DNA of 63,512 nt, the filler included, from Pelomyxa schiedti (Eukaryota; Protista; Evosea), in assembly GCA_020536535.1 (NCBI GenBank). It is 11 parts of 11 records of this genome, joined end to end, with 100 filler letters (N's around TTAATTAATTAA, not from the genome) between each part and the next. Parts side by side here need not be neighbours in the genome. Positions count along the whole stretch, not along the records: positions 27,644 to 32,344 come from JAHLWZ010001563.1; 10 more parts are not named here. One strand, 5' to 3'. Shown one piece after another: positions 6,633-63,134 of the stretch. A program made the position numbers and the translations under genes. Under the pieces are notes generated by a model. The model was not told the DNA's origin, made no database searches, and saw only the letters and a list, made by a program, of their open reading frames with translations. Each line of letters begins with the position of its first letter. Within the stretch, counting starts at the first letter, position 1.

Positions 6633-8111
6633 CTACAATGAGGAATGCAGGAAGGAGAAGTGGCGTGTGGTTTTGGTCAGAGGCCTGAATAACTTAAAGG
6701 TGATGACGTGGTCACCAGAGCACTCTTCACTCACATGAATGTCTTTGCCTGATTCACTTATCTGGAACATGAATCCACCTTCAGCAAAAGACTCAGTGGT
6801 GGTGAACCCAGGCAGTAACTTGCATTCCCTCACTGGTTTTATTGGGTCATTGATATCCCACACATCATAAACAGAACCCCGTTTGAAAACACAGAACTGT
6901 GACACACTCAGTTGTGAAATCACATGTGTCCCTGAAAACAATTTGTATCGCTCAGAATCAAGTGTGTGCACTTTGCCAGTTCCCTCGTCAATGGAAATGA
7001 GCCTGGCACATCCAGTCATTGTGACAAACGAGTGGGCACCACTCTCTGTGGAACACACAGCACATTCGTTGGTCATGAAATCCTCAGTCTCCAGGTCATC
7101 AGGACTCTCGTACATGTCCTCGATGTGAATAATCGCAGAGGCCACAGCCACAAGTTTTCCTGATGACTTTATTTGTGCAAGGTCGACAAGCACGAAATGC
7201 ACACAAGTGTATGAAACAGAGAAGCGAACCAACAGGTGGTCTTCATTGAAACTGCAAAAGGAATGTGTCAACACATTCCATTTTTTCTCAACAGGGGAAA
7301 TTGGAACCACTGTTGCTGGTTTTTCCTTTGCTGTGCTTTTCTCTCCCCTCTTTGGCAGCTCAATCACAAGCAGTGACCCTGTTGAAAAGCCCGCAAACCA
7401 CTTCCCATTTGTACCAGCTTCTTCACAGTAGCTTTCTAACAGTGGTTCCCTGTTCCCACTCACTCTGCTCTTCAATTGGTACAGCATCCGGCCTTCCACC
7501 AACTGGTGGTCATTTGCACCCAACAGTGGGGAACGCCAATCATAAACCCACCACTTCACTTCATGGCTCAGTGTCAACAACACCGAGGAGACACCGAATG
7601 TGATCATCCCACTGTACCTGTACTTTTTACTGTCCCAACACACGCAGAAGAACCTCTCAGTTCCCATCAACCACCTCCACAACAGCCTGAGCACCAGAGT
7701 GCCGTCACAACAACAATAACAACACCCACCACCGGCAGTATCACTCATAGTTGTCAACAGCAACAAAGGCGAGAGCGAGGAGCTGGAGCCACAGCGGGGG
7801 TGCGAGGCCATGGCCAACGACATCATCTGGTCCGCCATCGTGTCTGGTGGGTCTGTGGTCGTGGTTGTTGTCACTGTGATTGTGCCCCCTGTGCCTGTGC
7901 CCGCCCGTCCTCTTTTTGTCGTTGTGGTTGTGTTGGTTCTGGTCGATGGCGCCACGGTGACCACTTTGCCGACGGGGGTATGGTGGCGTACCGTTCGTGG
8001 TGGGGTGTTGTTTGGACAAATCGACGATGTGGTTGATGGTTGTTGTTGCTGGTCGTAAGCATCATCAGCAGCACCACGATGTGGCCTTTTGTGTTGTTGC
8101 TGACCGTCCAT
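6633..8111 (-). CDS. Intronless 492-aa uncharacterised 'HPRCG/NGKW' family protein
   Basis: Long uninterrupted ORF; colinear paralog of 25343-26783 (shared LRLLWRWLMGTERFFCV, TNGKWF, FCSFNEDHLLVRF, SQFCVFKRGS.YDVWD, EGG). Confidence 0.85.
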   Translation of the reverse strand: MDGQQQHKRPHRGAADDAYDQQQQPSTTSSICPNNTPPRTVRHHTPVGKVVTVAPSTRTNTTTTTKRGRAGTGTGGTITVTTTTTTDPPDTMADQMMSLAMASHPRCGSSSSLSPLLLLTTMSDTAGGGCCYCCCDGTLVLRLLWRWLMGTERFFCVCWDSKKYRYSGMITFGVSSVLLTLSHEVKWWVYDWRSPLLGANDHQLVEGRMLYQLKSRVSGNREPLLESYCEEAGTNGKWFAGFSTGSLLVIELPKRGEKSTAKEKPATVVPISPVEKKWNVLTHSFCSFNEDHLLVRFSVSYTCVHFVLVDLAQIKSSGKLVAVASAIIHIEDMYESPDDLETEDFMTNECAVCSTESGAHSFVTMTGCARLISIDEGTGKVHTLDSERYKLFSGTHVISQLSVSQFCVFKRGSVYDVWDINDPIKPVRECKLLPGFTTTESFAEGGFMFQISESGKDIHVSEECSGDHVITFKLFRPLTKTTRHFSFLHSSL

Positions 8112-8566
8112 TGATTTTCTTTGTTTTGAACTCGAAATGTCCTGAAAAAACTTAAACTACCTTTGTGATGGTGATTGACACTGCACAACTAGCCACAACC
8201 CCCAAGAAAAAAAAAGTCCTCACACATTCCGGCCTTTTCGAACCCAAAAATTTATGTGGAGCTGAATTGTGGGATGTGCTGTTTTCCTCGTTTTTGTTCT
8301 TCCTTTTTGCCGGTTACGGTAAGTATGCTGTGGGACATACAAAAGAAACCCTTCCTTACTGCTTTGTGGCTCTCCCAAAAATCACGGGATTATGGGGTAG
8401 GGTGATGTTAGGGATTTTGAGAGATGCAAGAAAACGACGACGTACGGCCGCGTGCACCAATCTGTATCCCACGTTGTGCGCTAAGGTGTGATGGTCAGTA
8501 TACTGTTAGTTAGTATTATTTTAAAATTATTCAATAGTTCCATGTATCTAGGAATAGTAATTCGAA

Positions 8567-17670: not shown

Positions 17671-20026
17671 ATGACGGACAGCAACAACAAGGGAGTGGGT
17701 GGCGACACGTCTTCGTCGTCGGCTACAACAACGACGACTACGACGACAACTACTAGTAGTACTGTAGCGAGGCGGTTGTGGTGGTGGTGGACCAAAACCT
17801 CGCTTTGTTCCAAGGTCCGTTGTTTGTTAGTTTGTTGTTTGTTTCTTTGTTGTGGGGTTTTTTTTTTTTTTTTTTTTTTTTTGGCTCAAGAGTCGGGGCC
17901 ACAACGTTCTTTTTGTTTGTTGTTGGGTTTTTTTTTTTTTTTGGAACCCCTAGGGTTGGCCATACAACTTCTTACTTTTTTTCAACTAGATATATGTAAG
18001 AACATGGGTCTTATTGAGAAAGCTCTGGCGACAAAGGAGACGAGGTTTATCACGCGGTGTATCAGGCAGACACCTCAGATACGGCGCAGGCTGTACTCGC
18101 AACCGGCTTCGTCAACGTCCACTTCTGCTACTACACAAGTAACATCTGTGTCCGGTTCTGCTGTTCTTCGTGCTGTCATCGATAAATACTGCGCTCAGTA
18201 TGGACCCCTCAAGACTTACCTAGTTTCATTTTTGGAGCCCACCACAATTGTATTGCCGTCGACGCAACCCCCTTCCACAGTATGCAAGTCAAAGAAAAAT
18301 GCCCTGATTTCTCATTACAATCTAGGATACTGACGCTTCGAAGCCGACTGCATCAACAACTTCCAGTGCCCAACCAACAAGATCCACAGGGAAAACGGAC
18401 CCTGAGCTCTTGGTCTACATTCACCTACTCATTTGCATGAATGTGATAGATAGATTTATCTCCCATTCCTCGGATATGGTCACTGGGTCAGTTGACCCCA
18501 CGACTGAAATGATGGGGTGTTGCAAGCAACTTGTAGGAAGCACACGTGGTCTTGATACTGTTGCTGATGCTATGACTGCAAAGTGTTGGTTTTACTATGC
18601 TCGAGCTGCTGAATTGTCGAAGATGTTGCCCTCTATTAGAAGGTTCGTGCCTACTTTTTAACGTACCTGTTTTCCTGACAGGTTTCCTCAGTGAACTTCT
18701 TGCTGCCTACAGAACAGCCACCTTGCGCCACATGGACGAAACCAAGGTTTTTCCGTTGCCGCATGAAATTTGAATTGATATCCTCAAAGGCCACAGTAGT
18801 GAATCTACTGTTACGAAACTATCTTATGTACAACCTCTATGATCAAGCTGATAAACTAGTCTCCAAAGTACCTGTCCTTACTGATCAGAGCACATCAGCA
18901 AGCCAACTGGCTCGATACCTATATTATCAAGGTATTGCTGGAAAATATTGTCTTCTTCTAAAAAATTTTCAGGCAAAATTAAGAGCATGCAGCTCGATTA
19001 TGGCGAGGCATACAAATTTTTGCAGCAAGCCCAACGCAAAGCCCCTCAATCTGCCAAGGGATTTCATTTATCCGTACACAATACCTTTGTTTAATTTTCC
19101 CAGCCCTTAAAACCAAAAAGGTCCTGAAGCTCTTATGCATTGTACAACAACTGCTAGGTGAAATTCCAAGCCGAAGTACCTTCGGGAAAGCCGACGGACC
19201 TCTCTCTGGTTATCTTGCTGTCACAAACGCAGTCCGAGTTGGTGATCTGGCGGCATTCAGGCTTGCCGTCGATTCTCGGAAAGCCGAGTTCGAGGCTGAT
19301 GGCACCTATTCTTTAATTCTGCGTTTGAGGCACAACGTCATCAAGGCAAGTATAATTTCTCCTCTCGCTTTTTCTCATACTCTCAGGCCGGTTTACGCAA
19401 GGTTTGCATGTCATATTCCCGCATCTCTTTATCCGATGTGGCAGCCAAGCTTCATCTGGACTCCGTGCAGGATTGCGAGTTTATTGTTGCCAAAGTATGT
19501 TCTAATTTCGTAACTGGCGGTAACATTTCACAAGGCAATCCGTGACGGTGTGATTGATGCCACCATAGACCATGAGGGTGGATTCATCCAGTCCAAGGAG
19601 AATCTCGATATTTACTCCACTCAAGAACCACGCAATGCGTTCCATCAGCGGATTACATTTTGTCTCAACATTCACAATGAAGCAGTGAAGGTAATACCCC
19701 CTCCCACTCCAAAACACACAAACAGCATGAACGCGATGCACCCGCACACAAGCTTTTGTGTGGATGACAAATACTCATGCAACATACCACATAAAAATCG
19801 TCACAAAACAAACAACGCAACAGCAAGCGAACACCCCGCCGTTTGCGTTAACGAGTGAGGATTCACAAACAATCCCCCTATCCTAAAAACTGGGAGGCAG
19901 TAGACTAACCACTGCAACACAAACTAGGCCATGCGATTTGCACCCGACGCACACAAGCCCAAGCCCCTCCAGACAACGTCCGACTCCCGCGCCCCTGAAA
20001 TAGACGACGATGACGATGACTTCTAG
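17671..20026 (+). CDS. RPN3: 26S proteasome lid subunit RPN3/PSMD3, multi-exon
   Basis: [44 protein letters not shown]|[42 protein letters not shown]|AMRF. Confidence 0.96.
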
Positions 20027-20145
20027 AACACCCCAACAACACCTACCACAACCACACTACCCCCACAACATTCTGAGGGCCCCTGCAGTTGCATAATTTA
20101 ATATCATGGGCGATCAGAATCTCGTTTCGTTCTCGTTATTGATCC

Positions 20146-20269
20146 ATGGCGACTACCACTACACCCACCACACCAGCTGCTATCCCAGCAACAACAACCA
20201 GCAGTAGTAGTGGCAGTGACAACAACACACCACCACCGGTGACCAGTGGCGTGGACGGTGCCGCACAAC

Positions 20270-20304
<35 letters not shown>

Positions 20305-21272
20305 AGCACTGTTGCACAAGGGACAAGTGCAACTGCTAGTACTAGTACTAGTACCAGTACCACCACAGGGGAAGGTGAGGAGGATGTGGACTACAGCGAC
20401 GAGTCGTGGGGGTGGTTCGAGGACGGGGTGCGGGCTGTGTTTGGGCAGTGGACGGGGATGTCGTTGTGCATCGACAACCGGTGGGGTGGCAGGAACACAC
20501 AGCAGCGGTGTGACCGGCTCATCGAGGACGTGCTGGATATGTTCTGGAACAGTGTGTTTCCCCTACCCCTACATACCCCCACCGCCACTCCCACACCCTC
20601 TCTATGTGTGAATTTAATTCTTCGCTCCCTTTTGACTGAACAACTGCTTGTACTGTTCTTGTTGTTGTGGGCTTCAGAACGTTCTTTGGAGCACGGGTAA
20701 CTAAGAAGAAATCCCAATTCCTTGCAGATGAAAGAGTTTATCACGACGAGTTGGAGGATATATTCTACGATTTTTTTGATACAATGTCCGTATCACTTGA
20801 GGATAACAGTATAGAACAAGTTAGTATAAATGCCGGTGCTGAAGCACAAATATACTAACTCCCAACAAGGTGTCACTAGAACTGGAAAAGCTTTGCAACG
20901 AGTGTTTGCGCGGTGACTTTTCCAGAGTTATTAAACTCACAACACCAAAATACACGCATAATTCAGCCAAAAGGAGCATCAAGTTCAAACCACCCACACC
21001 GGAAACAGCCGAGGCTCTTAATGGCGATGATGCGGCCGAGTCATCGTCCTCAGAGGAACCCTCGACAACAACCGCAACACAGCCGGAAACCACCAGCACT
21101 TCCACAACACCAACTACGGAAAATACCGTTAGTTCCTCCATAACACCTTCGACCTCTGCGGATACACCAGCATCAGATAGCAAACCATCACCAACCAAGT
21201 CCAACAACAAGAAAAAGAGTACCAACAAGAGTAAGCCATCACCCAACACACAGCCACAAACACAACAAAGAA
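20146..21272 (+). CDS. TSR2: Pre-rRNA processing protein TSR2 (WGG domain), copy 1, 3' end in gap
   Basis: FEDGVRAVFGQWTGMSLCIDNRWGG...DELEDIFYDFFDTMSVSLEDNSIEQ|V. Confidence 0.85.
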
Positions 21273-21372
21273 NNNNNNNNNNNNNNNNNNNNNNNNNNNN
21301 NNNNNNNNNNNNNNNNNNNNNNNNNNNNNNNNNNNNNNNNNNNNNNNNNNNNNNNNNNNNNNNNNNNNNNNN

Positions 21373-22200
21373 TCGGGAAAGCCGACGGACCTCTCTCTGG
21401 TTATCTTGCTGTCACAAACGCAGTCCGAGTTGGTGATCTGGCGGCATTCAGGCTTGCCGTCGATTCTCGGAAAGCCGAGTTCGAGGCTGATGGTACCTAT
21501 TCTTTAATTCTGCGTTTGAGGCACAACGTCATCAAGGCAAGTATAATTTCTCCTCCCACTTTTTCTCATACTCTCAGGCCGGGTTACGCAAGGTTTGCAT
21601 GTCATATTCCCGCATCTCTTTATCCGATGTGGCAGCCAAGCTTCATCTGGACTCCGTGCAGGATTGCGAGTTTATTGTTGCCAAAGTATGTTCTAATTTC
21701 GTAGCTGGCGGTAACGTTTCACAAGGCAATCCGTGACGGTGTGATTGATGCCACCATAGACCATGAGGGCGGATTCATCCAGTCCAAGGAGAATCTCGAT
21801 ATTTACTCCACTCAAGAACCACGCAATGCGTTCCATCAGCGGATTACATTTTGTCTCAACATTCACAATGAAGCAGTGAAGGTTATACCCCCCTCCCACT
21901 CCAAAACACACAAACCGCGTGAACGCGATGCACCCGCACACAAGCTTTTGTGTGGATGACAAATACTCATGCAACATACCATACCACATAAAAATCGTCA
22001 CAAAACAAACAACGCAACAGCAAGCGAACACCCCGCCGTTTGCGTTAACAAGTGAAGATTCACAAACAATTTCCCTATCCTAAATACTCAACACAAACTA
22101 GGCCATGCGATTTGCACCCGACGCACACAAGCCCAAGCCCCTCCAGACAACGTCCGACTCCCGCGCCCCTGAAATAGACGACGATGACGATGACTTCTAG
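21373..22200 (+). CDS. RPN3: Second copy (3' part only) of RPN3; probable alternative haplotype
   Basis: Exons nearly identical to ~19180-20026, with differences concentrated in introns; begins directly after a 100-N gap. Confidence 0.8.
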
Positions 22201-22332
22201 AACACCCCAACAAGCACATGCCACACCACCCCTCAAAACAAAACATACCATACCACACTGAGTGCCTCCCCTACAGTTGCATAACTTAATATCGGGGCGA
22301 TCAGAATCTTGTTTCGTTCTTGTTTTTGATCA

Positions 22333-23791
22333 ATGGCAACTACCACTAGACCCACCACACCACCTGCTATCCCAGCAACAACAACCAGTAGCAGTAGCAG
22401 TAGTGGCAGTGACAACAACACACCACAACCGGTGACCAGTAGCGTGGACGGTGCCGCACAACCAACAGCAACAACAACAAGCACTGTTGCACAAGGTGCA
22501 ACTGCTAGTACCAGTACCACCACAGGGAAGGAAGGTGGCGTTGATGGGGATGGCGATGGTGATGGTGATGTGGACTACAGCGAGGAGTCGTGGGGGTGGT
22601 TCGAGGACGGGGTGCGGGCTGTGTTTGGGCAGTGGACTGGGATGTCGTTGTGCATTGACAACCGGTGGGGTGGCAGGAACACCAAGCAGAGGTGTGACCG
22701 GCTCATCGAGGACGTGCTCGATATGTTCTGGAACAGTGTGTTTCCCCTACCCCTACATACCCCCACCGCCACTCCCACACCCTCTGTATGAATTTGATTC
22801 TTCGCCCTCTTTTTACTGAACAATTGCCTTTACTGTTCTTGCTGGTGTGAGCTTGAATTTTGAAGTGGAGCACGGTAACTAAAAAGAAATCCCAATTCCT
22901 TGGCAGATGAAAGAGTTTATCACGACGAGTTGGAAGATATATTCTACGATTTCTTTGATACAATGTCCGTGTCACTTGAGGATAACAGTATAGAACAAGT
23001 TAGTCTATTTGTGCTTCGGCACCGGCATTTATACTAACTCCCAACAAGGTGTCACTAGAACTGGAAAAGCTTTGCAATGAGTGTTTGCGCGGTGACTTTT
23101 CCAGAGTTATTAAACTCACAACACCAAAATCCACGCATAATTCGGCCAAAAGGAGCATCAAGTTCAAACCACCCACACCGGAAACAGCCGAGGCTCTTAA
23201 TGGTGATGATGCGGCCGAGTCATCATCCTCGGAGGAACCCTCGACAACAACCGCAACACAGCCGGAAACCACCAGCATTTCCACAACACCAACTACGGAA
23301 AATACCGTTAGTTCCTCCACAACACCTTCAACCTCTGCGGATACACCAGCATCAGATAGCAAACCATCACCAACCAAGTCCAACAACAAGAAAAAGAGTA
23401 CCAACAAGAGTAAGCCATCACCCAACACACAGCCACAAACACAACAAAGAANNNNNNNNNNNNNNNNNNNNNNNNNNNNNNNNNNNNNNNNNNNNNNNNN
23501 NNNNNNNNNNNNNNNNNNNNNNNNNNNNNNNNNNNNNNNNNNNNNNNNNNNACCTCTGCGGATACACCAGCATCAGATAGCAAACCATCACCAACCAAGT
23601 CCAACAACAAGAAAAAGAGTACCAACAAGAGTAAGCCATCACCCAACACACAGCCACAAACACAACAAAGAAAAACCAAAGCCACAGCACCAGTGGTTGA
23701 TGCTGATGGCTGGCAGACTGTCCCTACCTCAGCTACAACATCCAAACCCAAACCCAAAAAAACAACAAAAAACAAACCCAAGAACCACTGA
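22333..23791 (+). CDS. TSR2: TSR2 copy 2 (spans gap; C-terminus ...DADGWQTV...KNH*)
   Basis: Near-identical to copy 1 with indels in Thr/Ser/Gly-Asp tracts; the terminal DGW..V motif lies after the gap. Confidence 0.8.
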
Positions 23792-25013: not shown

Positions 25014-25342
25014 CATCCAACTAACAACAAAAAAAAAANNNNNNNNNNNNNNNNNNNNNNNNNNNNNNNNNNNNNNNNNNNNNNNNNNNNNNNNNNNNNN
25101 NNNNNNNNNNNNNNNNNNNNNNNNNNNNNNNNNNNNNNAAATGTGGTGGCTGCGGAAAGCTATTTGGTGATGAAGGCTTCTATGAGGATAGGGGCCAACT
25201 CTGGCACTTGCAATGTGCACCAAAGGGTCATTAACATCCAACTAACAACAAAAAAAAAAACCTTGTGTTGGTTCTGTGGGTATCGACAGATTTGATTTCA
25301 CATAAATTACAAAAACCCATCCGTTTTTAACAACAAAAAAGG

Positions 25343-26783
25343 ATGGACCACGAACAACTGAAAAGACAACACCGCGACTTTCATTCTGCCCAACAAGTCG
25401 CCGCGTCGCCAAAACCAAACAACCCATCGCAAGTCCATGTCCGTGCAGGTAGAGCGATCACCGTCGCCCCGTTTTCCAGAACAGAAACGATAACGACAAC
25501 GGATACAACGAGGGGAACAACCACAGTGACAACAACCACGACATCATCCAAACAACACACGATGGCGGACCAGATGGTGTCGCTGGCCATGGCATCGCAC
25601 CCCCGCTGTGGCTCCCGCTCCTCGCTCTCGCCTTTGTTGCTGTGGTCGATGACCGCACCATCGATGATGACCACTTGTGCTGCTGCTGCTGGTGGTGGTT
25701 GTGACGGCACTCTGGTGCTCAGGCTGCTGTGGAGGTGGTTGATGGGAACTGAGAGGTTCTTCTGCGTGTCTTGGCGTTGCAAGAACCCCAAGGTGATCAT
25801 CATGGTCACATTTGGCGTCTCTTCTGTGCTTCTGACACTGACCCATGGATTGAAGTGGTATGGCAGGGCGAGAGCTCCATTTTGCGGTGCAAATGACCAC
25901 CAGTTGGTGGCACAGGATAATGCCAGGGAGGGTGTTTATTACTTGAAGAGCAGAGCAACGGGGAACCTTGAACCTCTGGTTTCCATCAAAAAGTCCTTTG
26001 ACACAGAGGGCACAAATGGGAAGTGGTTTGTGTGCTTTTCAACAGACTCATTGTTTGTCATTGAGCTGCCAAAGAGGGGAGAGCAAAGCACAGCAAAGGA
26101 AAAACCAGCAACTGTGGTTCCAGTTTCATCTGTTGGCAGTTGCTGTGAGTACTGGAGGTTCTCCTTTTGCAGTTTCAATGAGGACCACTTGTTGGTTCGC
26201 TTTTATGACTCGTGTGAACCTACTTGTATGCAATTTGTTCTGATTGACCTTGCGCAAACAAAGTCATCAGGAAAATTGGTGGTTGTGGCTTCAGCTACTC
26301 CTCAAATTCCAAATCCCGCTTGCAGTAACCTCGAGTGGGGTGAATCACGAATGTTGTGCCTGTTCCACAAATAGTGGTGCCTACTCATTTGTCACAATGA
26401 CTGACTGTGGCAGGCTCCTGGCAATCGAGGAGGGCACTGCCCAAGTACATCAATTGTCTTCCAAGAGATACAAATTGTTTGCATCCCCAACAGTGATCTC
26501 ACAGATGAGCCCGTCACAGTTCTGCGTTTTCAAAAGGGGGTCTACTTATGATGTGTGGGATATGAACAACCCAATTGAGCCACTGAGAAAGAAGTGCCAG
26601 CCTGGCTTCACCACCTATGAGGCTTTTGGGGAAGGTGGCTATCTGTTCCAGGTCAGCGAATCGCACAAAGAAATCCACGTGTCAGAAGAGTCATCTGGTG
26701 ACCACATCATCACGTTCAAGTTATTCAGTCCTCTCCAGAGCACCCTGAGCCACTTCTCCTTCCTTCTCTCCTCTCAGAATTAG
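25343..26783 (+). pseudogene. 'HPRCG/NGKW' family gene split by a single frameshift (pseudogene or sequencing error)
   Basis: ORFs 25343-26374 and 26244-26783 together align end to end with 6633-8111. Removing one G from GGGG at 26337-26340 joins them (…NLEWVNHEC…). Confidence 0.8.
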
Positions 26784-28524: not shown

Positions 28525-31092
28525 CTAATACCCTAGTGCCTTGAGTGCCCGGTTGATGAGCTTCAATCGACCACCAGAGCAGGACCGTTTCTCTTTCCGT
28601 AAGTATTTCTTGATGGCTCCACTTTTTAGTTTGGGAGCATCACCAGGAACTTCTCCAATTTCTGTTTTGTTTGGAGTATCAAAAGAATGAGAAATAGTCA
28701 ATGGGGAGTGCGGAATACCTTTTAATGCCGTCAGCAGCTTTTGCTCCTTCTCTACTTGGCTTTGCATCTTAGCAAGTTGTGGCACGGGTTTCCTGGCAAG
28801 TTGTTCGACGGGTTTCCTCTTCATTGGTAGAACTCGTTCCTCCTTAGCACTTTGCGAAGGAGGCGGTACTGGCAATGAAGGAGGCGGTATTAGCAATGAA
28901 GGAGGCGGTACTGGCAATGAAGGAGGCGGTATTGGCAATGAAGGAGGCGGTACTGGCAATGAAGGAGGCGGTACTGGCAATGAAGGAGGCGGTACTAGCA
29001 ATGAAGGAGGCGGTATTGGCAATGAAGGAGGCGGTACTAGCAATGAAGGAGGCGGTATTGGCAATGAAGGAGGCGGTACTGGCAATGAACGGCGCGGATG
29101 CCCGGTACGCTGTGAAGGTGGTGTAGTGAGTTGTCTAATTATGGCCCAGTGATTTTCTGTGGGAACTCCATTCAATAGTATTTTTGCCACATGCCAGACA
29201 CTGTCCAATGACGAAGAACCTTGCAGTTGGGCATTGTGCGACGCTAAGTTTTGAAAACGCATCCACGAGAACAGTTCACTTGCCTTAAGGTGGCCAAGTG
29301 GCTCAGCCAGGAGGACGTTCAATGCCATAATATGGCGCGTCAAGACCATGAAGACCTGAGCATGCAAAAGATGGCAGGGGCATACTGGGCAATGGGTCTG
29401 GAATGCATGATATCGGGCCAAGACTTGCCCAAGGAGGGGAATCCAGCAACAAATTGGCACACAATTCCGAAGCATGGCTACTGCTATCAAGCATGCACAG
29501 ACAGTTCCCCCATTTGGAAGTGTGACAAGCCTTTCAATAGAGTCACTAAGAAACTGCAAATTCCAGTGAAATAGGCAGTCCCGCAAAGAATCTTTTGGGG
29601 TTGTAGACAAGGAAACAGAATCCTGGTGAACGGTAAGATCTGTTGCGCGTAAGGTAAAGAAGAGTTATTATTAATCTTACCTGAATGGGAGATGTAGAGC
29701 CGTGTTCGCGAATTCGCTGTATTTGTCAGTGGAAGCACCGCAAATATTGGTTTCAATATATCCAAGATATCATCTGTCCCCGGTGTAGTGAAAGTGGGTG
29801 CATCCAACAGTGTGTCCCTGCATAGGGACCTAATGGTGTACGTTGCACTGTTCTGGAGGTCAGTGTGTGGCGGGACTGGCCGGAAATTCACGAGAGCACT
29901 CATGATGTTCGTACAGTGAGGCTTAAGAATATCAACAGAACGAAGCCATGCCAAAGTGCGGAGTTCCTCTGGCATGAACTTCTCCATCTCATTTTCTGTG
30001 AAAACGGATGGAGGAACAGTGCTGCTGCTTTGGACAAAATTCAAGAGATTGGGGGTTGAACCCAAGGTCCTCCATAGGGCTAGCCTTGTAACCCCATTTC
30101 CAGCCAAAATGGCAAAAAGGGCTAACTGAGATGGTTCCAGTACTAATTTGGTGCACAGTTCTGTTCTTTAGAGTCGTGAAAAAAACAAGCATAATTAAGA
30201 GTAGTGAAACTGTTTTAGCTCGACAAGGGTCCCGTCGCGTTCAAATATTTCAGCATCCAACCAGGAGTTTACACCATTGAAGAAAATCACGCTATTACTA
30301 TGGGACAAAACACCAACTGCGTTTTGTGCCTTGGCCAAGTAGGCTGCTTCAGCGGCCAGGTTTGTTGAGAAATGTACCTTGATGGGTTAGGGGAAGGTCC
30401 GGCAATCAAAATTCAACAAAGACTGTACCTCGACGTGTGCCTCTTGAAACGCCTCGAAGAGCGCCAGTCGTACTAATGGATCCACGGAATACAAGGTGTC
30501 AGCAATCACAGAGTCATGGTGCCGGTTACAGTGGTCGCAGACCGGATTTGCGGTTGAAGCCTCAGCTGAGTCTCTGCCACTGTGAGGGGCGTTCTTGTCC
30601 CGGTCGAAACACGACCAGTATGGCAGCTTGACTTTTGGGTTTTCAGGGTCATGTCTTGGCCCTGTCAGTGCTGGAATGAAGCCTTTAGTTAAATGGCACA
30701 GCAAACGCAGCTGCCTCCGGGCATCTTCAGTTCGAAAGTGCCTCCAGTTGGGGAAGTGCCCATCATCTTCGAGAAGAACGGTGGGACTGAGATTACGCTT
30801 TGCGAGATTCTGCACGAAACTCCTCACGCGAAATTTTATGACTCTCATCTCAGAGATTGGGCCCTGTGTGTAAGTCCACGCTCTCTCGAAACCGGATCCA
30901 TCCACAATTATCTTTCGCAGCACGGCAGAGTTCACGTCTATGTAATTGTGCACCAAGTCGTACTCTTTGGTCAAGTCTGCAAAACCTGAAGACTCCATAA
31001 GTACTCTTTTCCCCACGCCGTCCACCGTGCCAGTACCTCTCACGTTCATCGGCAGTATTGCCTCCACCGGCTTCACTTCGCTGTCGCGACAA
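28525..31092 (-). CDS. XPG/FEN1-like PIN-domain protein with degenerate active site (Mkt1/FAM120/Asteroid-like) and Pro-rich repeat tail; multi-exon, 5' end unresolved
   Basis: Ordered motifs GKRVLMESSGF (cf. GKR.AIDAS), LSPTVLLEDDG (cf. P.FVFDG), VE|VHFSTNLAAEAAYLAK (cf. APYEAEAQ.AYL), GVLSHSNSVIFFNG (cf. V.SEDSD.L.FG). ORFs 30387-31076, 29487-30107 and 28525-29610 are linked by short introns. Confidence 0.6.
28856..29089. repeat. Coding minisatellite, 11 x 21 bp (GAAGGAGGCGGTAYTRGCAAT), encoding SL(P/L)(V/I)PPP on the minus strand
   Basis: Directly visible tandem array with only two variable positions. Confidence 0.97.
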
Positions 31093-31226
31093 GAAAATCT
31101 GCTGTTTACAATTTTAAAAAGTGATTACGCCAATGATGGAAAAACCTCAGAAAAAAGTCAGCTCCACCATTCACGAAAAACAACCGCAATACGGCTTGTG
31201 AGCTTTGCTCCGTTCATCTGGATCTT

Positions 31227-31347
31227 AGAGCAATAACAATAATAATACTAGTCCTAGACACTGACCTCAATAAATAGCGTAATGTGGGGCGGCGTTGTAG
31301 CTCAATGGTAGAGCGCCTGGTTTTCAGGACGTGATGCGCGGTTCGAT
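31227..31347 (+). repeat. Direct repeat, copy 1 (121 bp identical to 32224-32344; period 997 bp)
   Basis: AGAGCAATAACAATAATAATACTAGTCCTAG...GCGCGGTTCGAT occurs twice. Confidence 0.95.
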
Positions 31348-31378
31348 TCCCGCCACGACCGTTCCACATTTTTTTTTT
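31281..31378 (+). ncRNA. tRNA-derived Pol III-type RNA with extended terminal stem and oligo-T terminator (not a canonical tRNA)
   Basis: A box TAGCTCAATGG, intact D arm GCTC/GAGC, B box GGTTCGATTCC, shortened anticodon arm CCTG-GTTTT-CAGG, AATGTGGGGCGG pairing with CCGTTCCACATT, then a T-run. Confidence 0.7.
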
Positions 31379-31507
31379 CCCCCTTTAAAAAAAGAAAGAG
31401 AAAAAAAATAAAAAATAAAAAATAAAAAGGAAAAAAGAAAATTTCTTTTTTCCCCGAGCCTGAGAGCACAGGGACTCAGCCAATAGCACACAACAACAGA
31501 TATCGGG

Positions 31508-31583
31508 TGGGCCAATGCGGGAATCGAACCGCCGATCTTCAGATTAGAAGACAGCAGTGCATCCAGCTGAGCTACCAGCGCTC
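31508..31583 (-). ncRNA. Second tRNA-like element (degenerate; CTTCTAA loop suggests tRNA-Arg(TCT) ancestry), convergent with the first
   Basis: Reverse complement GAGCGCTGG-TAGCTCAGCTGG...TCTTCTAATCTGAAGA...GCGGTTCGATTCCCGC-ATTGGCCCA. A and B boxes intact; acceptor and D stems imperfect. Confidence 0.6.
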
Positions 31584-32223
31584 GTGGCTTCATTTCCCAA
31601 GTGTTTTCCTCCAGCCAAAAAACCCCGTTGGGTTGGACGATTGAAAAAGAAGCCACGGAATCGGCAGAGTGACTGGTGCCATCAGCCATTGGTGCTCAGT
31701 CAGATTCACTACGGTACCTCCACCCTTGGTTTCTACGTGTTTCCAAAACCTACTTCATCTTTTTCAAGCTGTTTTCAACTAAAAACCTCGCTTCTATTGG
31801 CTGCCTCACGCTCACCAATTGGTTGAAAATATCACAATTCCCTCCACAAACTATCTCAGCACCCTCGCGTCACACCGGCCTGCCCTTCTGGCATTCCTCT
31901 CCTACTTACTGCGTTCTACAATCTTGCAAGCGAGTTTCACTGAAAAAAAAACTGTTTTGCACCCCCTTTAATGCGAAAGCCGCCATTCATTATTTGCATT
32001 ATTTGTATATTTCGAATTTAGCATAACACTGCCCAGTGCTAGATTGATGCCAATACTGCCACTGGATTTCCAGAAGGCCAGAATCACTTTAGAAATTGGT
32101 TCTGTGTTTTTTGTACTGCAAGGTTTTTAGATACAGCCATTTTACATAAAATTTTTATATATCTATATAGGCCCCCCACCCCACACATACACAACAGCGC
32201 TCCGCTCCCTTTTGGGGAGAAGA

Positions 32224-32344
32224 AGAGCAATAACAATAATAATACTAGTCCTAGACACTGACCTCAATAAATAGCGTAATGTGGGGCGGCGTTGTAGCTC
32301 AATGGTAGAGCGCCTGGTTTTCAGGACGTGATGCGCGGTTCGAT
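32224..32344 (+). repeat. Direct repeat, copy 2, with second copy of the tRNA-like RNA (32278-32344) cut by the contig end
   Basis: Identical to 31227-31347; the contig ends within the B box. Confidence 0.95.
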
Positions 32345-53612: not shown

Positions 53613-54463
53613 TTAGGAGCGTAACTTATTTGCAATCCAGTCCATTCCTAATTCCAGACTAAAAGAATGTTTAGGTGGGAAGTGATTAATTGGTGTAAAT
53701 GAGTACACACCCTTCACCAGTGAGAGCGCAACACGACTAAATAGATGTAAGTGATTATTTTTACATTCGGCTTGTGGATAACCTGTATGTGCCAGTCATG
53801 GTCTTTGATATTGTGTAGTTCTAATTCGTCGGAAATTTCGGCAGCTGACATAGCTCCTTTGATATCTCTTTTGTTGGCAAAAACTAATAAGAATGCACTT
53901 CTGAGATGCTACTTGTTTGAGTAAGGTTTAAAATAAGTAACGGTCAAAAGAAAGGTAAACTTGCCTCATGGCTAAGCAGTTTTGCAAGTTCCATTTTCAC
54001 TGTGGGCATTCTACTTCTGTCACTGCTATCTACTACAAGGACAACTGCCTGTTAATTTAATTTGGTTTCGTTAGTCAATGAATAGGACGAAGGAGGGCTT
54101 ACACTCGAGTTCATATAGTAAGTACACCACGCGTCCCTCATCATGTCACCCCCGCTGAGGTCCCAAATAATCATACGGACGTTCTTGTATACAAGTTCTT
54201 CTACATTACTTCCCACCGTAGGTGACGTAGCAACGACCTCATTTAGCAAACTAAACATAAGTACGAATGAAAAAAGAAAACAAATGCTTCATTTTTCGAG
54301 TGAGCGAAGTGAATACAATGTACACGGTTGGTGAAAAAGGAAAAAAGACCTACAGCTTATATACAATTGTCGTCTTTCCGGCACTAGCCAACCCAACAAC
54401 AACGACTTTGAACTCGGGAACAGAAAACATACGAGCCCACAGCTTCGCGAACACCGACCCCAT
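53613..54463 (-). CDS. ARL5: ARL5-like Arf-family small GTPase, multi-exon
   Basis: MGSVFAKLW (myristoylation-type start), [48 protein letters not shown]|SCCALTGEG|L..GMDWI. Confidence 0.9.
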
Positions 54464-54595
54464 CTCTCGCCTTCGTCTTTTTTTTTCTTTTGATCTGTTT
54501 TGTTGGTTGTGCTTTTCGCGATCTGGCAGGGAACTGGCTTCACTTTCGGCGCAACGCCGAAATCACAAGGCAACGAAACAAAGGAGACGGTGAAT

Positions 54596-55605
54596 ATGGG
54601 CGACGTTATCACCCTGCAGTTTGGCCACTATTCCAATTTCATTGGCACACATTTTTGGAATCTGCAGGTTCGTGGTGTGCCGCGGGGGAGGTTTTGTGGG
54701 TGCTCGTGTTATCTACAAAACTCAACATTGTGGGATTTCAAAAAGGACTCGAACGAATTTGCTACAAACCCTAGTGTTGATAGCAATATATTGTTTAAAA
54801 CTGGATATTCTGAAGTTACGAGGCAACAGACTTTTACTCCTCGTTTGTTGTTGTTTGATAAGAGCGGTATTCTTGTAAACTTTTTCCCTTTTCTTTTCTT
54901 TACTTGTTTACACTACGAGCTTCTTCCCTTTTTTTGTTAAAAACAATGGAGTTGTTGTAAACAAAACAGAAGGTAGTATTTATTTTTAAAATTATGACAA
55001 TAGGAAGTTTGGGATCATTGAATTCACAGGGATATCTGTACAGTACCCCTGCTCCTACCGAAGAACTACCCACGAAGCTTTCCACTTGGTTAGGAAGAAT
55101 CCTAAGTAATTAACAAAGTGAATCAAATTCAGAAATAGATGGGACATAATCTAACCTTCGAGAAAAGGAATGGTGGAGTGTCACCATGTGTATCTGACCC
55201 TGTTGAGAAGAATCCATTTCTCAAGTACTTGGATTCCCAAGCACTGAGCAACACAGTTTGTGATAGCACTTATACTTTAAAGAATAACTTTCTTCCCACT
55301 GTAGGAGCCCTCGGATCCAACTGATAATGGTACAGTGAATTTGTGAGTATTTTTTCTGTGGATAATGGCCACAGATGCACTGGAGACGCCAGCACTCGAG
55401 CCTTTACCCGTATTTTCGTTAGAAAGTTCAGTGAACGTCTGGTCTGATTTTCTCAAAATTGACATACACCCGAAGTCCGTTTTCCTACTGCCTGGTGTTC
55501 ACCATGAGATAGACGCATTTGACACCTTCAACTCTGGTTCAATAACCTTCTCTGGTGAATTGAATGTGTGCTCTGCCTAATCGAACAGCATCTAAACTGA
55601 ATGAG
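54596..55605 (+). CDS. MSTO1: Misato/DML1 tubulin-like protein, 3' part lost in gap
   Basis: MGDVITLQFGHYSNFIGTHFWNLQ, TFTPRLLLFDKSG|SLGSL...G.LY, VNVWSDFL...HPKS. Confidence 0.9.
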
Positions 55606-55705
55606 NNNNNNNNNNNNNNNNNNNNNNNNNNNNNNNNNNNNNNNNNNNNNNNNNNNNNNNNNNNNNNNNNNNNNNNNNNNNNNNNNNNNNNNNNNNNNNN
55701 NNNNN

Positions 55706-56256
55706 GAGTAAGGTTTAAAATAAGTAACGGTCAAAAGAAAGGTAAACTTGCCTCATGGCTAAGCAGTTTTGCAAGTTCCATTTTCACTGTGGGCATTCTA
55801 CTTCTGTCACTGCTATCTACTACAAGAACAACTGCCTGTTAATTTAATTTGGTTTCGTTAGTCAATGAATAGGACTAAGGAGGGCTTACACTCGAGTTCA
55901 TATAGTAAGTACACCACGCGTCCCTCATCATGTCACCACCGCTGAGGTCCCAAATAATCATACGTACGTTCTTGTATACAAGTTCTTCTACATTACTTCC
56001 CACCGTAGGTGACGTAGCAACGACCTCATTTAGCAAACTGAACATAAGTACGAATGAAAAAAGAAACGAATGCGCCATTTTTCGAGTGAGCGAAGTGAAT
56101 ACGATGTACACAATGATACGGTTGGTGAAAAAGAAAAAAGACCTACAGCTTATATACAATTGTCGTCTTTCCGGCACTAGCCAACCCAACAACAACGACT
56201 TTGAACTCGGGAACAGAAAACATACGAGCCCACAGCTTCGCGAACACGGACCCCAT
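55706..56256 (-). CDS. ARL5: Second (partial) copy of ARL5-like gene; probable alternative haplotype
   Basis: Near-identical to 53919-54463, directly after a 100-N gap. Confidence 0.8.
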
Positions 56257-56377
56257 CTGTCGCCTTCGTCTTTTTTTTTTCTTTTGATCTGTTTTGTTGG
56301 TTGTGCTTTTCGCGATCATGCTTCCTTTCGGCGCAACGCCGAAATCACAAGACAACTAAACAAAGGAGACGGTGAAT

Positions 56378-56499
56378 ATGGGCGACGTTATCACCCTGCA
56401 GTTTGGCCACTATTCCAATTTCATTGGCACCCATTTTTGGAATCTGCAGGTTCGTAGTGTGCAGCGGGGGAGGTTTTGTGGGTGCTCGTGTTATCTCTT
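56378..56499 (+). CDS. MSTO1: Second copy of Misato exon 1
   Basis: Identical peptide MGDVITLQFGHYSNFIGTHFWNLQ. Confidence 0.75.
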
Positions 56500-61728: not shown

Positions 61729-63134
61729 ATGGCAACAACGTGGAGCGATGGCTCCATCACATCGACCTGTGCGGTCACCACACGCGGCCAACTTGACGCC
61801 CTCGCTGCAGGGGCGACGATCGAGCGGTGCGGCGGTGCCAGCGCGATGCAGCGGGTTATGGGACGCGGCCACGCCACGTGGTTCGTCGGCGCGATGTGGC
61901 GCGACCTGGTGCGCCCCACGCGACCAAGGAGTTCGTCCTCCGCGCCAACGTCGCCGGCGCCACCCACTGCGTCTCGTTCGCCCTCTCGCCGCTCCTCCTC
62001 AGCGTCTCAGGCGCCGGCGGCCCGGCGCAGGTCCCCGCGCCGTGGGGCCCGTTGGTCGACGCCCGCCGCGTCGCCATGCTGGAGAGGGGCTACGCGCTGG
62101 GCCCCGGGCCCATCGACGGGTACCTGCTCGGCATCAGGGAGCTGTCGAACCAATCCGGCGCCGTTGTCGCCTGCGCGCGGGGGGACCCCGGCAGCATAAG
62201 GTACTCCTTCGAGTTCGCTGTGAACACCAAGTGGGCCGCGGTGCTGGCGTACCACCCGGAGTTGCCTTCGTCGCTGACCGTGGCGACAGTACCTCCTCCT
62301 GCTGCTGTTGGGGCGGTGTTGGGAACCAGTAATGGGAAGGAGGCCGCCTCCTTCCACGACCGCCGCGGCGTCGTTGTGGGAATGCCTTTGGAAACTGGGT
62401 GCGCCTTGCGCAGCATCCAACTGTTCCCGGACCGCTCTGTTGACAGCGAGGTAATTGTCACTGATTCCACGCGCATGGGCACAACAATTTTTGTTGTTGA
62501 CATGGAGCAAACCTACAACAGTGGGAGCTTGGCCCTTTTGAGCACAACAAAATCCGTGTTGCCAAACCGCTACTTTGATTCCATGATTGTGCTGAGGAAC
62601 TGGGAGCAGCACCGCCATTCTCCTCCTGGCTGTTGTTCCGGATCCCGCACCTTCATTGTCAGAAGTTCCAAACCCGGTGCCATGGCTTCTCAAGCATTTC
62701 ACGTAGAGGAATCAACAGGCATTTCCACAAAAATCCAACGAAGCAATGTGGTTGAGGTATTCAGGGTGTCTGACCCACTGTTCTGTGTGTCATTCCGCCC
62801 AAACAACGAAGAGCCTCAGGAATGGTTCACAATCTATCACCGTGACAAGCCCACTGTTCCACTGGATGTCCTTCAGAACCTCCAAGACGAAAACACACCA
62901 CTCAAGGGAGGTGGTGGTGGCATTGTTGGCAGTGATACTGATGGTGCCACGTGTGATGTGGACCAGGCAGCCCACAGGAGGTTCTTTGCAGAGTCTGGAT
63001 TCGTCTTCCTTCTGTCTGCCAACACGGTTGATGTTATTGAGCCAACATCTGGATTCCTTGTACTCACAATCTCTTTTCCTGGGTGCGGTTCAGAATTCCT
63101 CAGTTCCACACCTTTCTCGTGTTTCTTAACCTGA
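61729..63134 (+). pseudogene. Divergent 'RCG/N.KW' orphan family gene with one frameshift (or sequencing error)
   Basis: N-terminus RGQLDALAAGATIERCGGAS...MWRDLVRP in one frame; remainder (VSFALSPLLL, VNTKW, VVDMEQT..SG.L, FAESGFVF) in another. One extra C at CCCC 61914-61917 fuses them. Confidence 0.72.

What the first reader, a model, noticed from the sequence alone, without database searches (positions are those of the whole stretch)
31281..31378. Candidate novel tRNA-derived Pol III small RNA with a long closing stem
Seen: perfect A and B boxes, intact D arm, a T arm with one bulge and an anticodon arm shrunk to CCTG-GTTTT-CAGG (no 7-nt loop). The acceptor is bulged but extended by a further 12 pairs (AATGTGGGGCGG with CCGTTCCACATT, two G-U) and runs straight into a T-run terminator. 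An identical second copy exists. Random decay of a tRNA would not be expected to give complementary flanks. Known: vault RNAs, adenovirus VA RNAs and tRNA-derived SINE heads use A/B-box promoters, and the first two have paired termini. Inference: a non-decoding tRNA-mimic RNA of about 90 nt.
Basis: partly seen in the sequence, partly recalled or inferred. Interest (0 to 1): 0.78.

Follow-up and report, generated by a model that had tools for sequence, protein, structure and literature searches.

The report
Anticodon-less tRNA-like RNA of Pelomyxa
A Pelomyxa-like amoeba carries, in a 1-kb tandem repeat and at other loci, a tRNA-derived gene that has lost its anticodon loop and has a 12-pair stem joining its two ends, and it likely makes an unprocessed, protein-binding RNA of about 90 bases built like a vault RNA, though no transcript or partner has been shown.

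Summary
The anatomy is real: consensus A and B boxes, D arm, bulged T arm, a 4-pair hairpin instead of an anticodon arm, a mispaired acceptor and a T10 terminator. The 12-pair closing stem is beyond chance (27 of 20,000 shuffles; 0 of 19,350 random window segments). Corrections: two of the 12 pairs are the acceptor's own, and the 'identical second copy' is the next unit of a 997-bp tandem repeat, cut off inside the B box, so it says nothing about the stem. The host is a Pelomyxa-like archamoeba. Contigs from one sample show several diverged paralogues whose changes fall mostly on G-U pairs, bulges and the hairpin loop; G-rich 5' arms and C-rich 3' arms occur but are not physically linked, and the counts are not significant. 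Rfam scores it as a damaged tRNA (35.6 bits), not as vault or Y RNA. No homologue was found in metagenome, viral or prokaryote scans, nor earlier in this scan. Best reading (0.5): a selected, non-decoding Pol III RNA whose stem blocks tRNA processing and binds protein, vault-RNA-like. Main rival (0.3): an amplified tRNA pseudogene. A second A/B-box element faces it in the same unit. Expression is untested.

The parts
31281..31378 (+). tRNA-derived, anticodon-less Pol III-type gene; predicted RNA about 88-92 nt (start inferred at 31281 or 31284, end in the T run)
31281..31292 (+). 5' arm of the closing stem (10 leader positions plus acceptor positions 1-2)
   Evidence: 12 contiguous pairs with 31359-31370
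31298..31308 (+). A box, overlapping the D arm (31300-31314, G18-G19 kept)
31316..31328 (+). 4-pair hairpin with a 5-nt loop in place of the anticodon arm; internal T4; loop differs (one change plus 6 inserted bases) in a paralogue
31330..31357 (+). T arm with bulged 31339 and B box 31340-31350; can be extended by 31330-31333 pairing with 31354-31357
   Evidence: 31335 and 31339 vary among paralogues
31359..31370 (+). 3' arm of the closing stem
31369..31378 (+). T10 run, Pol III terminator-like
31227..31280 (+). AT-rich upstream flank shared by the tandem unit and, with 2 changes in 48 bases, by another locus
   Evidence: records 2, 3, 16, 17
31227..32223 (.). 997-bp tandem repeat unit carrying both A/B-box elements
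31429..31453 (.). palindrome giving a T run on both strands between the two convergent elements
31438..31589 (-). second, convergent A/B-box element (about 150 nt): shares a 16-nt T arm/B box with the first, central hairpin, 19-pair interrupted terminal stem that takes in the A box
32278..32344 (+). next tandem copy, truncated at a scaffold gap inside the B box

Best explanation
This is a tRNA-derived gene without an anticodon loop whose two ends are complementary over 12 pairs, and it is likely transcribed by Pol III into an unprocessed RNA of about 90 nt that is predicted to keep the tRNA elbow and to serve as a protein-binding RNA in the manner of vault RNA. Steps: (1) shown: internal A and B boxes at tRNA spacing, AT-rich upstream flank, T10 terminator; inferred: TFIIIC/TFIIIB/Pol III transcription from about 31281-31284 to the U run. 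(2) shown: complementary ends, a C-G pair at -1:73 and a 10-pair extension; inferred: RNase P and RNase Z cannot cut, so no CCA, no aminoacylation, and the 3' oligo-U is kept and bound by La. (3) shown: D loop GG and T loop kept, anticodon loop and in-register acceptor lost; inferred: it cannot decode but can present a tRNA elbow to proteins. (4) untested: the partner; the likeliest single candidate is the TROVE protein TEP1 of the vault particle (about 0.2 absolute), otherwise another elbow- or stem-binding protein.
For: Stem beyond chance. Boxes perfect while acceptor and anticodon are lost. Several sequence types in one sample (27 records laid from 4 runs): G-U to A-U at 31288; loop change and insertion at 31321-31324; changes at 31335 and 31339, both unpaired in the bulged/extended T arm; by contig branch points (my inference, 31-letter words) 31339 changes a second time and a further change sits at the G-U site 31362. 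A diverged copy (X2 record 14) differs at 10 of 16 leader positions without gaps yet its leader still gives 7 contiguous pairs with 31359-31365 (read by eye from table 7); C-rich 3' arms in X1 record 7, X2 record 13 and X4 record 25 would pair with its G-rich 5' arm. One paralogue shares the upstream flank and gene but diverges straight after the T run (table 7). A 4-pair acceptor extension strongly impaired a plant protein-only RNase P, and two consecutive G-C pairs upstream of the cut are absent from Arabidopsis nuclear pre-tRNAs (PMC4797305, passages). Vault RNAs are 80-140 nt A/B-box Pol III RNAs with terminal stems and La-bound oligo-U (PMC7916137, PMC10498592, passages); the related archamoeba Mastigamoeba has two MVPs (PMC12547018, passages) and TEP1 is in amoebozoan vaults (PMC3762200, passages).
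Against: No transcript seen. Paralogue counts are not significant: 4 of 6 listed substitutions of the long-loop type plus leader variant are structure-neutral, P 0.2-0.4, and the other two (31281, 31282) break the outermost pairs unless compensated by an unlisted change; the link between leader variant and long-loop type is inferred from depths only. G-rich 5' and C-rich 3' arms lie on different contigs. Some copies have damaged A boxes (record 14 lacks one base; records 7, 8, 13, 15 carry 8 changes), as decaying copies would. All runs are one sample and may be the window's own source. Rfam Vault and Y models give no match at E up to 10. The central part is predicted structured, whereas vault RNAs have an open central loop that favours TEP1 binding (PMC7058938, section 7). 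The internal T4 could cut transcription short. The RNase P data come from a plant enzyme; the enzyme type here is unknown.
Confidence: 0.5

Rival explanations
1. A tRNA pseudogene carried along in a tandem and segmental amplification; the stem is inherited leader-trailer pairing or an old local duplication and is no longer selected.
For: Rfam tRNA match above the gathering score; copies with damaged A boxes; gene changes no rarer than flank changes between the two best-seen loci (about 7 in 97 against 2 in 48); a second degenerate tRNA-like element in the same unit; weak acceptor extensions are frequent in Arabidopsis pre-tRNAs (PMC4797305, passages); Entamoeba keeps tRNA genes in tandem arrays (PMC2652664, passages).
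Against: Both boxes and the D and T loops are perfect while acceptor and anticodon are ruined; a 10-pair extension starting with C-G is what functional pre-tRNAs avoid; changes cluster at G-U sites and bulges.
Confidence: 0.3
2. The A and B boxes matter as DNA (TFIIIC-bound sites organising the array or neighbouring chromatin); any RNA is incidental.
For: Two convergent A/B-box elements share an identical 16-base B-box region inside a tandem unit; the boxes are the best-kept parts.
Against: Does not explain the G-U-containing closing stem or the second element's terminal stem.
Confidence: 0.1
3. A minimal tRNA-derived SINE.
For: A/B boxes, multicopy, A-rich sequence downstream.
Against: The T10 terminator comes before the A-rich stretch; there is no tRNA-unrelated body; paralogues share 50-110 bases of upstream flank, which retroposition would not copy (records 3, 17).
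Confidence: 0.05
4. A working but aberrant tRNA (after editing or splicing), for instance a UGA reader: the long-loop paralogue has TCA in its loop.
For: Rfam tRNA score 35.6; the long-loop type can display a 7-base loop with a central TCA above a 5-pair stem and one mismatch (read by eye).
Against: Acceptor positions 3-5 mispair in register in the window copy and no listed change repairs them in the paralogue; the window copy has no 7-base loop and no intron to remove; Rfam tRNA-Sec is not reported for this element (one lower-scoring same-clan match was left out of the listing); the stem would block end processing.
Confidence: 0.05

Closest known systems
Vault RNAs (Rfam Vault; metazoan vtRNAs and trypanosomatid TBsRNA-10)
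   Same: Internal A and B boxes, 80-140 nt, 5' and 3' ends paired, oligo-U end, multicopy paralogues (PMC7916137, PMC7058938, PMC10498592, PMC9326685; passages). Vault genes exist in a related archamoeba (PMC12547018, passages).
   Different: No Rfam Vault match; keeps a full D arm and T arm and scores as tRNA; central region predicted paired rather than an open loop; TEP1 binding untested.
Bacterial Y RNAs YrlA and Yrn1
   Same: tRNA elbow (D and T arms) joined to a long protein-binding helix, no functional anticodon (PMC4201824, passages).
   Different: YrlA is permuted (T before D) and carries a GNCGAAN0-1G Ro60 motif near the 5' end; here the order is canonical and the sequence shows no such motif.
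Trypanosomatid sRNA-76 (tRNA-like RNA of the signal recognition particle)
   Same: Protist, tRNA-like, non-decoding RNA recruited to an RNP (PMC9283944, passages).
   Different: It pairs with 7SL RNA; no 7SL was available to test this; no closing stem of this kind is mentioned in the passages read.
Entamoeba tRNA gene arrays, including small RNA X
   Same: Archamoeba with Pol III genes in tandem units of about 1 kb, one of which holds an unidentified small RNA of about 200 nt beside tRNA-Thr(TGT) (PMC2652664, passages).
   Different: Those arrays hold intact tRNAs and complex short tandem repeats; this unit holds no intact tRNA and only an A-rich run and one 18-base repeat. Homology to RNA X was not tested.
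Rodent BC1 RNA / ID element
   Same: tRNA-derived non-decoding Pol III RNA (PMC5372738, passage).
   Different: BC1 arose through a SINE and has an A-rich region inside the transcript (recalled); here the terminator follows the stem at once.

Membership tests
Decoding tRNA (RF00005) | Covariance-model score above the gathering threshold | tested here: met
   35.6 bits against 29
Decoding tRNA (RF00005) | 7-pair acceptor stem | tested here: not met
   3 of 7 pairs non-standard in register
Decoding tRNA (RF00005) | 7-nt anticodon loop on a 5-pair stem | tested here: not met
   4 model positions deleted; 4 pairs and a 5-nt loop; ARAGORN 0 genes
Vault RNA | Internal A and B boxes, T-run end, 80-140 nt | tested here: met
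   (by sequence; length inferred)
Vault RNA | Paired 5' and 3' ends forming a terminal helix | tested here: met
Vault RNA | Match to the Rfam Vault model | tested here: not met
   no match at E up to 10; vault RNAs are poorly conserved outside the boxes (PMC3762200), so this lowers membership, not likeness
Vault RNA | Open, variable central loop | tested here: inconclusive
   central hairpin loop is the most variable part among paralogues but is predicted paired
Vault RNA | Binding to TEP1 and vault particles; MVP and TEP1 genes in the host | not testable with these tools
   no genome held; searches gave nothing either way
Y RNA (Ro60 ligand) | GGUCCGA or GNCGAAN0-1G motif at the 5' strand of the stem | tested here: not met
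   motif from PMC4201824; absent from 31281-31297 by inspection; no Rfam Y match
tRNA-derived SINE | tRNA-unrelated body and tail, independent flanks with target-site duplications | tested here: not met
   terminator directly after the stem; upstream flank shared by paralogues
sRNA-76-type SRP RNA | Base pairing with the 7SL Alu-like domain and co-purification with SRP | not testable with these tools
   no 7SL sequence of this organism at hand
Entamoeba-type tRNA array | Tandem unit with intact tRNA genes separated by complex short tandem repeats | tested here: not met
   tandem unit yes; intact tRNA no; complex repeats no

The most novel reading that the evidence does not exclude
This is the vault RNA of an amoebozoan, and one that still carries a full tRNA D arm and T arm: a living intermediate between a pre-tRNA with paired leader and trailer and the vault RNAs of animals and trypanosomes, amplified in a tandem array face to face with a second, more vault-like A/B-box RNA whose terminal stem has already swallowed its A box.
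Probability: 0.2. Interest if true: 0.8.

Novelty: new variant of a known kind. Interest (0 to 1): 0.52.

Why it matters
Vault RNAs are characterised in animals and trypanosomatids only in the papers I read, although amoebozoans have vault proteins; one 2013 paper says structure is the only way to find them elsewhere (PMC3762200, passage). A tRNA-shaped, closed-ended Pol III RNA in an archamoeba is a concrete candidate and would make the proposed tRNA origin of vault RNAs testable. Even with another partner, it shows a simple route from tRNA to a new non-coding RNA: pair leader with trailer, lose the anticodon. If it is a pseudogene, it only shows that Pelomyxa, like Entamoeba, keeps Pol III-type genes in tandem units.

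Tried and rejected
Own-genome search: no genome held. Sequencing runs: 4 holders, one sample, no RNA holder listed; this is no evidence on expression. Homologue scans: metagenome pattern, 8 of 8 hits ordinary bacterial tRNAs (5 Ala, 2 Thr, 1 Phe), so the parent isotype is not fixed; viral pattern, 11 hits, 8 called tRNA by ARAGORN at the match and 3 uncalled phage tRNA-like RNAs, none a homologue; exact D-arm/hairpin motif in prokaryote genomes 0; extended T-arm motif in viruses 0. These patterns would miss diverged relatives. Earlier scan notes: nothing alike by sequence or words; one search listed 8 findings from other genomes, each lacking a search word. Host MVP/TEP1/Ro60: no mention in 2 supplementary files of PMC8887013; a phage Ro60 used as bait found nothing; uninformative. 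ARAGORN at lowered thresholds with introns gave only circular-wrap noise. The sigma-70 scan does not apply to a eukaryote. A DNA-level inverted-repeat element was rejected because the stem relies on G-U pairs and the flanks are co-duplicated. Literature: searches listed no paper on vault or tRNA-like RNAs of Pelomyxa or other archamoebae; the trypanosome vault RNA paper (PMC6816085) is not held, Stadler 2009 was not read, and files 13-20 of the PMC12547018 supplements were not searched, so a published candidate could have been missed.

Full report
Setting. The window is a gapped eukaryotic scaffold with no whole genome held. A POT-family transporter in it has as its best of 5 hits a protein named Pelomyxa schiedti, 52% identical; an earlier scan note on another piece of this genome also names Pelomyxa. 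I take the host to be a Pelomyxa-like archamoeba on that one hit.

The observation. The element at 31281-31378 has an A box (31298-31308) and a B box (31340-31350) that fit the recalled consensus at every position, 42 bases apart, and a T10 run at 31369-31378. Rfam gives one match in the whole window, tRNA RF00005 at 31291-31361, 35.6 bits against a cut-off of 29, with 3 of 7 acceptor pairs broken, 4 anticodon-loop positions deleted and one inserted base in the T stem. ARAGORN finds no gene. The closing stem 31281-31292 with 31359-31370 has 12 contiguous pairs, 11 with probability 0.93 or more; 27 of 20,000 shuffled leaders and 0 of 19,350 random window 30-mers reach 12 pairs, and 7 and 2 of them reach its duplex energy. 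By Rfam numbering the inner two pairs are the acceptor's own, so the extension is 10 pairs and starts with C-G at -1:73. Against over-reading: plain folding leaves the D arm unformed (0.03) and the cloverleaf 3-5 kcal/mol above the minimum; the z-score of -2.6 to -2.9 is matched by 12 of 64 windows of the unit; and the hairpin loop holds a T4 run that might stop Pol III.

The second copy. 31227-31347 and 32224-32344 are identical over 121 bases. The second ends at a gap inside the B box and lacks the 3' arm. Two other exact 121-base pairs in the window also abut gaps, which looks like an assembler's word overlap (inference). Contigs of 2 of 4 runs join 31380 back to 31227 across 843 letters, so 31227-32223 is a real 997-bp tandem unit. 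The copy is therefore not independent evidence for the stem.

Paralogues. Four runs of one sample hold the stretch, none on record as RNA; they may be the window's own source. Laying their contigs on 31021-31380 (27 records) shows several types. (a) A long-loop type on contigs of 15.9 and 7.4 kb: T to G at 31321, 6 bases inserted after 31324, T to A at 31335, C to A at 31339, and one unlisted change near the 3' end; it diverges right after the T run. (b) A leader variant in 3 of 4 runs: changes at 31281, 31282 and 31288, the last turning G-U into A-U; depths suggest but do not show that it belongs to type (a). A second upstream type with 2 changes in 48 bases shares flank further upstream still. 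(c) X2 record 14 keeps the short hairpin but differs at 10 of 16 leader positions without gaps and lacks one A-box base; its G-rich leader still gives 7 contiguous pairs with 31359-31365 (read by eye). (d) X1 record 7, X2 record 13 and X4 record 25 have C-rich 3' arms that would pair with such a leader, turning T-A pairs into G-C; the two halves lie on different contigs and are not linked. From where contigs branch I infer a second change at the bulge 31339 and one at the G-U site 31362. Counted strictly, 4 of the 6 listed substitutions of (a) plus (b) are structure-neutral, P 0.2-0.4; the two others break the outermost pairs. The paralogues thus fit a selected stem but do not prove it, and some look like decaying copies.

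A second element. On the minus strand of the same unit, facing the first, lies another A/B-box element (A box starting at 31574, B box at 31530) that shares an identical 16-base T arm and B box. It has lost the D stem; folding gives a central hairpin and an interrupted 19-pair terminal stem that takes in the A box, ending near a T4 at 31438-31441. Its 5'-3' duplex is matched by 62 of 5,000, 25 of 5,000 and 22 of 4,734 controls (segments chosen after seeing the fold), so it is suggestive only. Rfam gives nothing above 12.7 bits. A palindrome at 31429-31453 supplies T runs on both strands.

Relatives elsewhere. None found: 8 of 8 metagenome hits are ordinary bacterial tRNAs, 11 viral hits are phage tRNAs or tRNA-like RNAs, and two exact motifs give 0 in prokaryote genomes and viruses. 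The patterns would miss diverged homologues. The scan had not noted this before.

Mechanism. Shown: promoter boxes, terminator, paired ends, intact elbow loops, lost anticodon and acceptor register. Inferred: Pol III makes an RNA of about 90 nt; the continuous helix through -1:73 prevents RNase P and RNase Z cleavage. Support comes from a plant protein-only RNase P, where a 4-pair extension strongly impaired cleavage and strong pairs upstream of the cut are rare in nuclear pre-tRNAs, though weak extensions are frequent (PMC4797305, passages). The RNA would keep its oligo-U, be bound by La as vault RNA is (PMC10498592, passages), never be charged, and act through bound proteins. The partner is untested. 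Vault RNA is the closest design: 80-140 nt, A and B boxes, terminal stem (PMC7916137, PMC7058938, PMC7904556, PMC9326685, passages; bioRxiv 10.64898/2026.10.07.757187, passages, likens its stem to a pre-tRNA acceptor and trailer). Mastigamoeba balamuthi has two MVPs (PMC12547018, passages) and TEP1 is in amoebozoan vaults (PMC3762200, passages). But the Rfam Vault model does not match, vault RNAs favour an open centre (PMC7058938, section 7), and vault genes in this host could not be tested (bioRxiv 10.64898/2026.05.01.722283, one passage, added nothing). So it works like a vault RNA on my best reading (0.5 for a selected unprocessed RNA, about 0.2 for TEP1 as partner), but is not filed as one. 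Bacterial Y RNAs join an elbow to a Ro60 helix but in permuted order and with a motif absent here (PMC4201824, passages); trypanosome sRNA-76 is another protist tRNA-like RNP RNA (PMC9283944, passages); Entamoeba arrays give a precedent for the tandem setting and hold an unidentified small RNA X (PMC2652664, passages).

Rivals. An amplified pseudogene with inherited end pairing (0.3) explains the damaged copies and the lack of rate constraint, but not well the perfect boxes and strong extension. A DNA-level TFIIIC element (0.1), a SINE (0.05) and an aberrant working tRNA (0.05) fit less.

Verdict. A real, undescribed (in the searches named under Tried and rejected) tRNA-derived element family with a non-random closing stem; new variant of a known kind; interest 0.52. 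Linked full-length copies, the genome's normal tRNA flanks as control, and small-RNA data would decide it.

Noticed in passing
window 31438-31589 (-): Second A/B-box element convergent with the first; its predicted terminal stem takes in the A box, which is more vault-RNA-like than the reported element; conservation among copies not examined.
   Followed up: partly
L008 485-567 (-): Phage tRNA-like RNA with no anticodon loop, a 10-pair closing stem and a bulged T arm (z only -0.9), not called by ARAGORN: the same design reached apparently independently.
   Followed up: partly
L003 and L020 (G001): A 294-kb phage has an ARAGORN-uncalled tRNA-like RNA and, about 9 kb away, a 541-aa TROVE (Ro60-like) gene.
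   Followed up: no
run X3 record 19: Contig leaves the element at 31298 and continues in sequence like the reverse strand of the upstream flank: probably an amplification chimera.
   Followed up: no
window 32031-32122 and 31671-31762 (+): Two further locally well-folding stretches in the tandem unit (z -3.4 and -2.9), without Rfam match.
   Followed up: no
window 30387-31124 (-), 29487-30167 (-), 28525-29664 (-): Divergent upstream reading frames; only a weak listerin N-terminal hit (E 0.004, below cut-off); one holds a 21-base proline-rich repeat.
   Followed up: no
window 6633-8156 (-), 25331-26783 (+), 61797-63134 (+): Members of an apparently expanded protein family without Pfam match for the two tested.
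   Followed up: no
window 19182-23672 and 53919-56496: Near-identical duplications of about 2.2 and 1.8 kb next to scaffold gaps; alleles, tandem copies or assembly duplicates.
   Followed up: no
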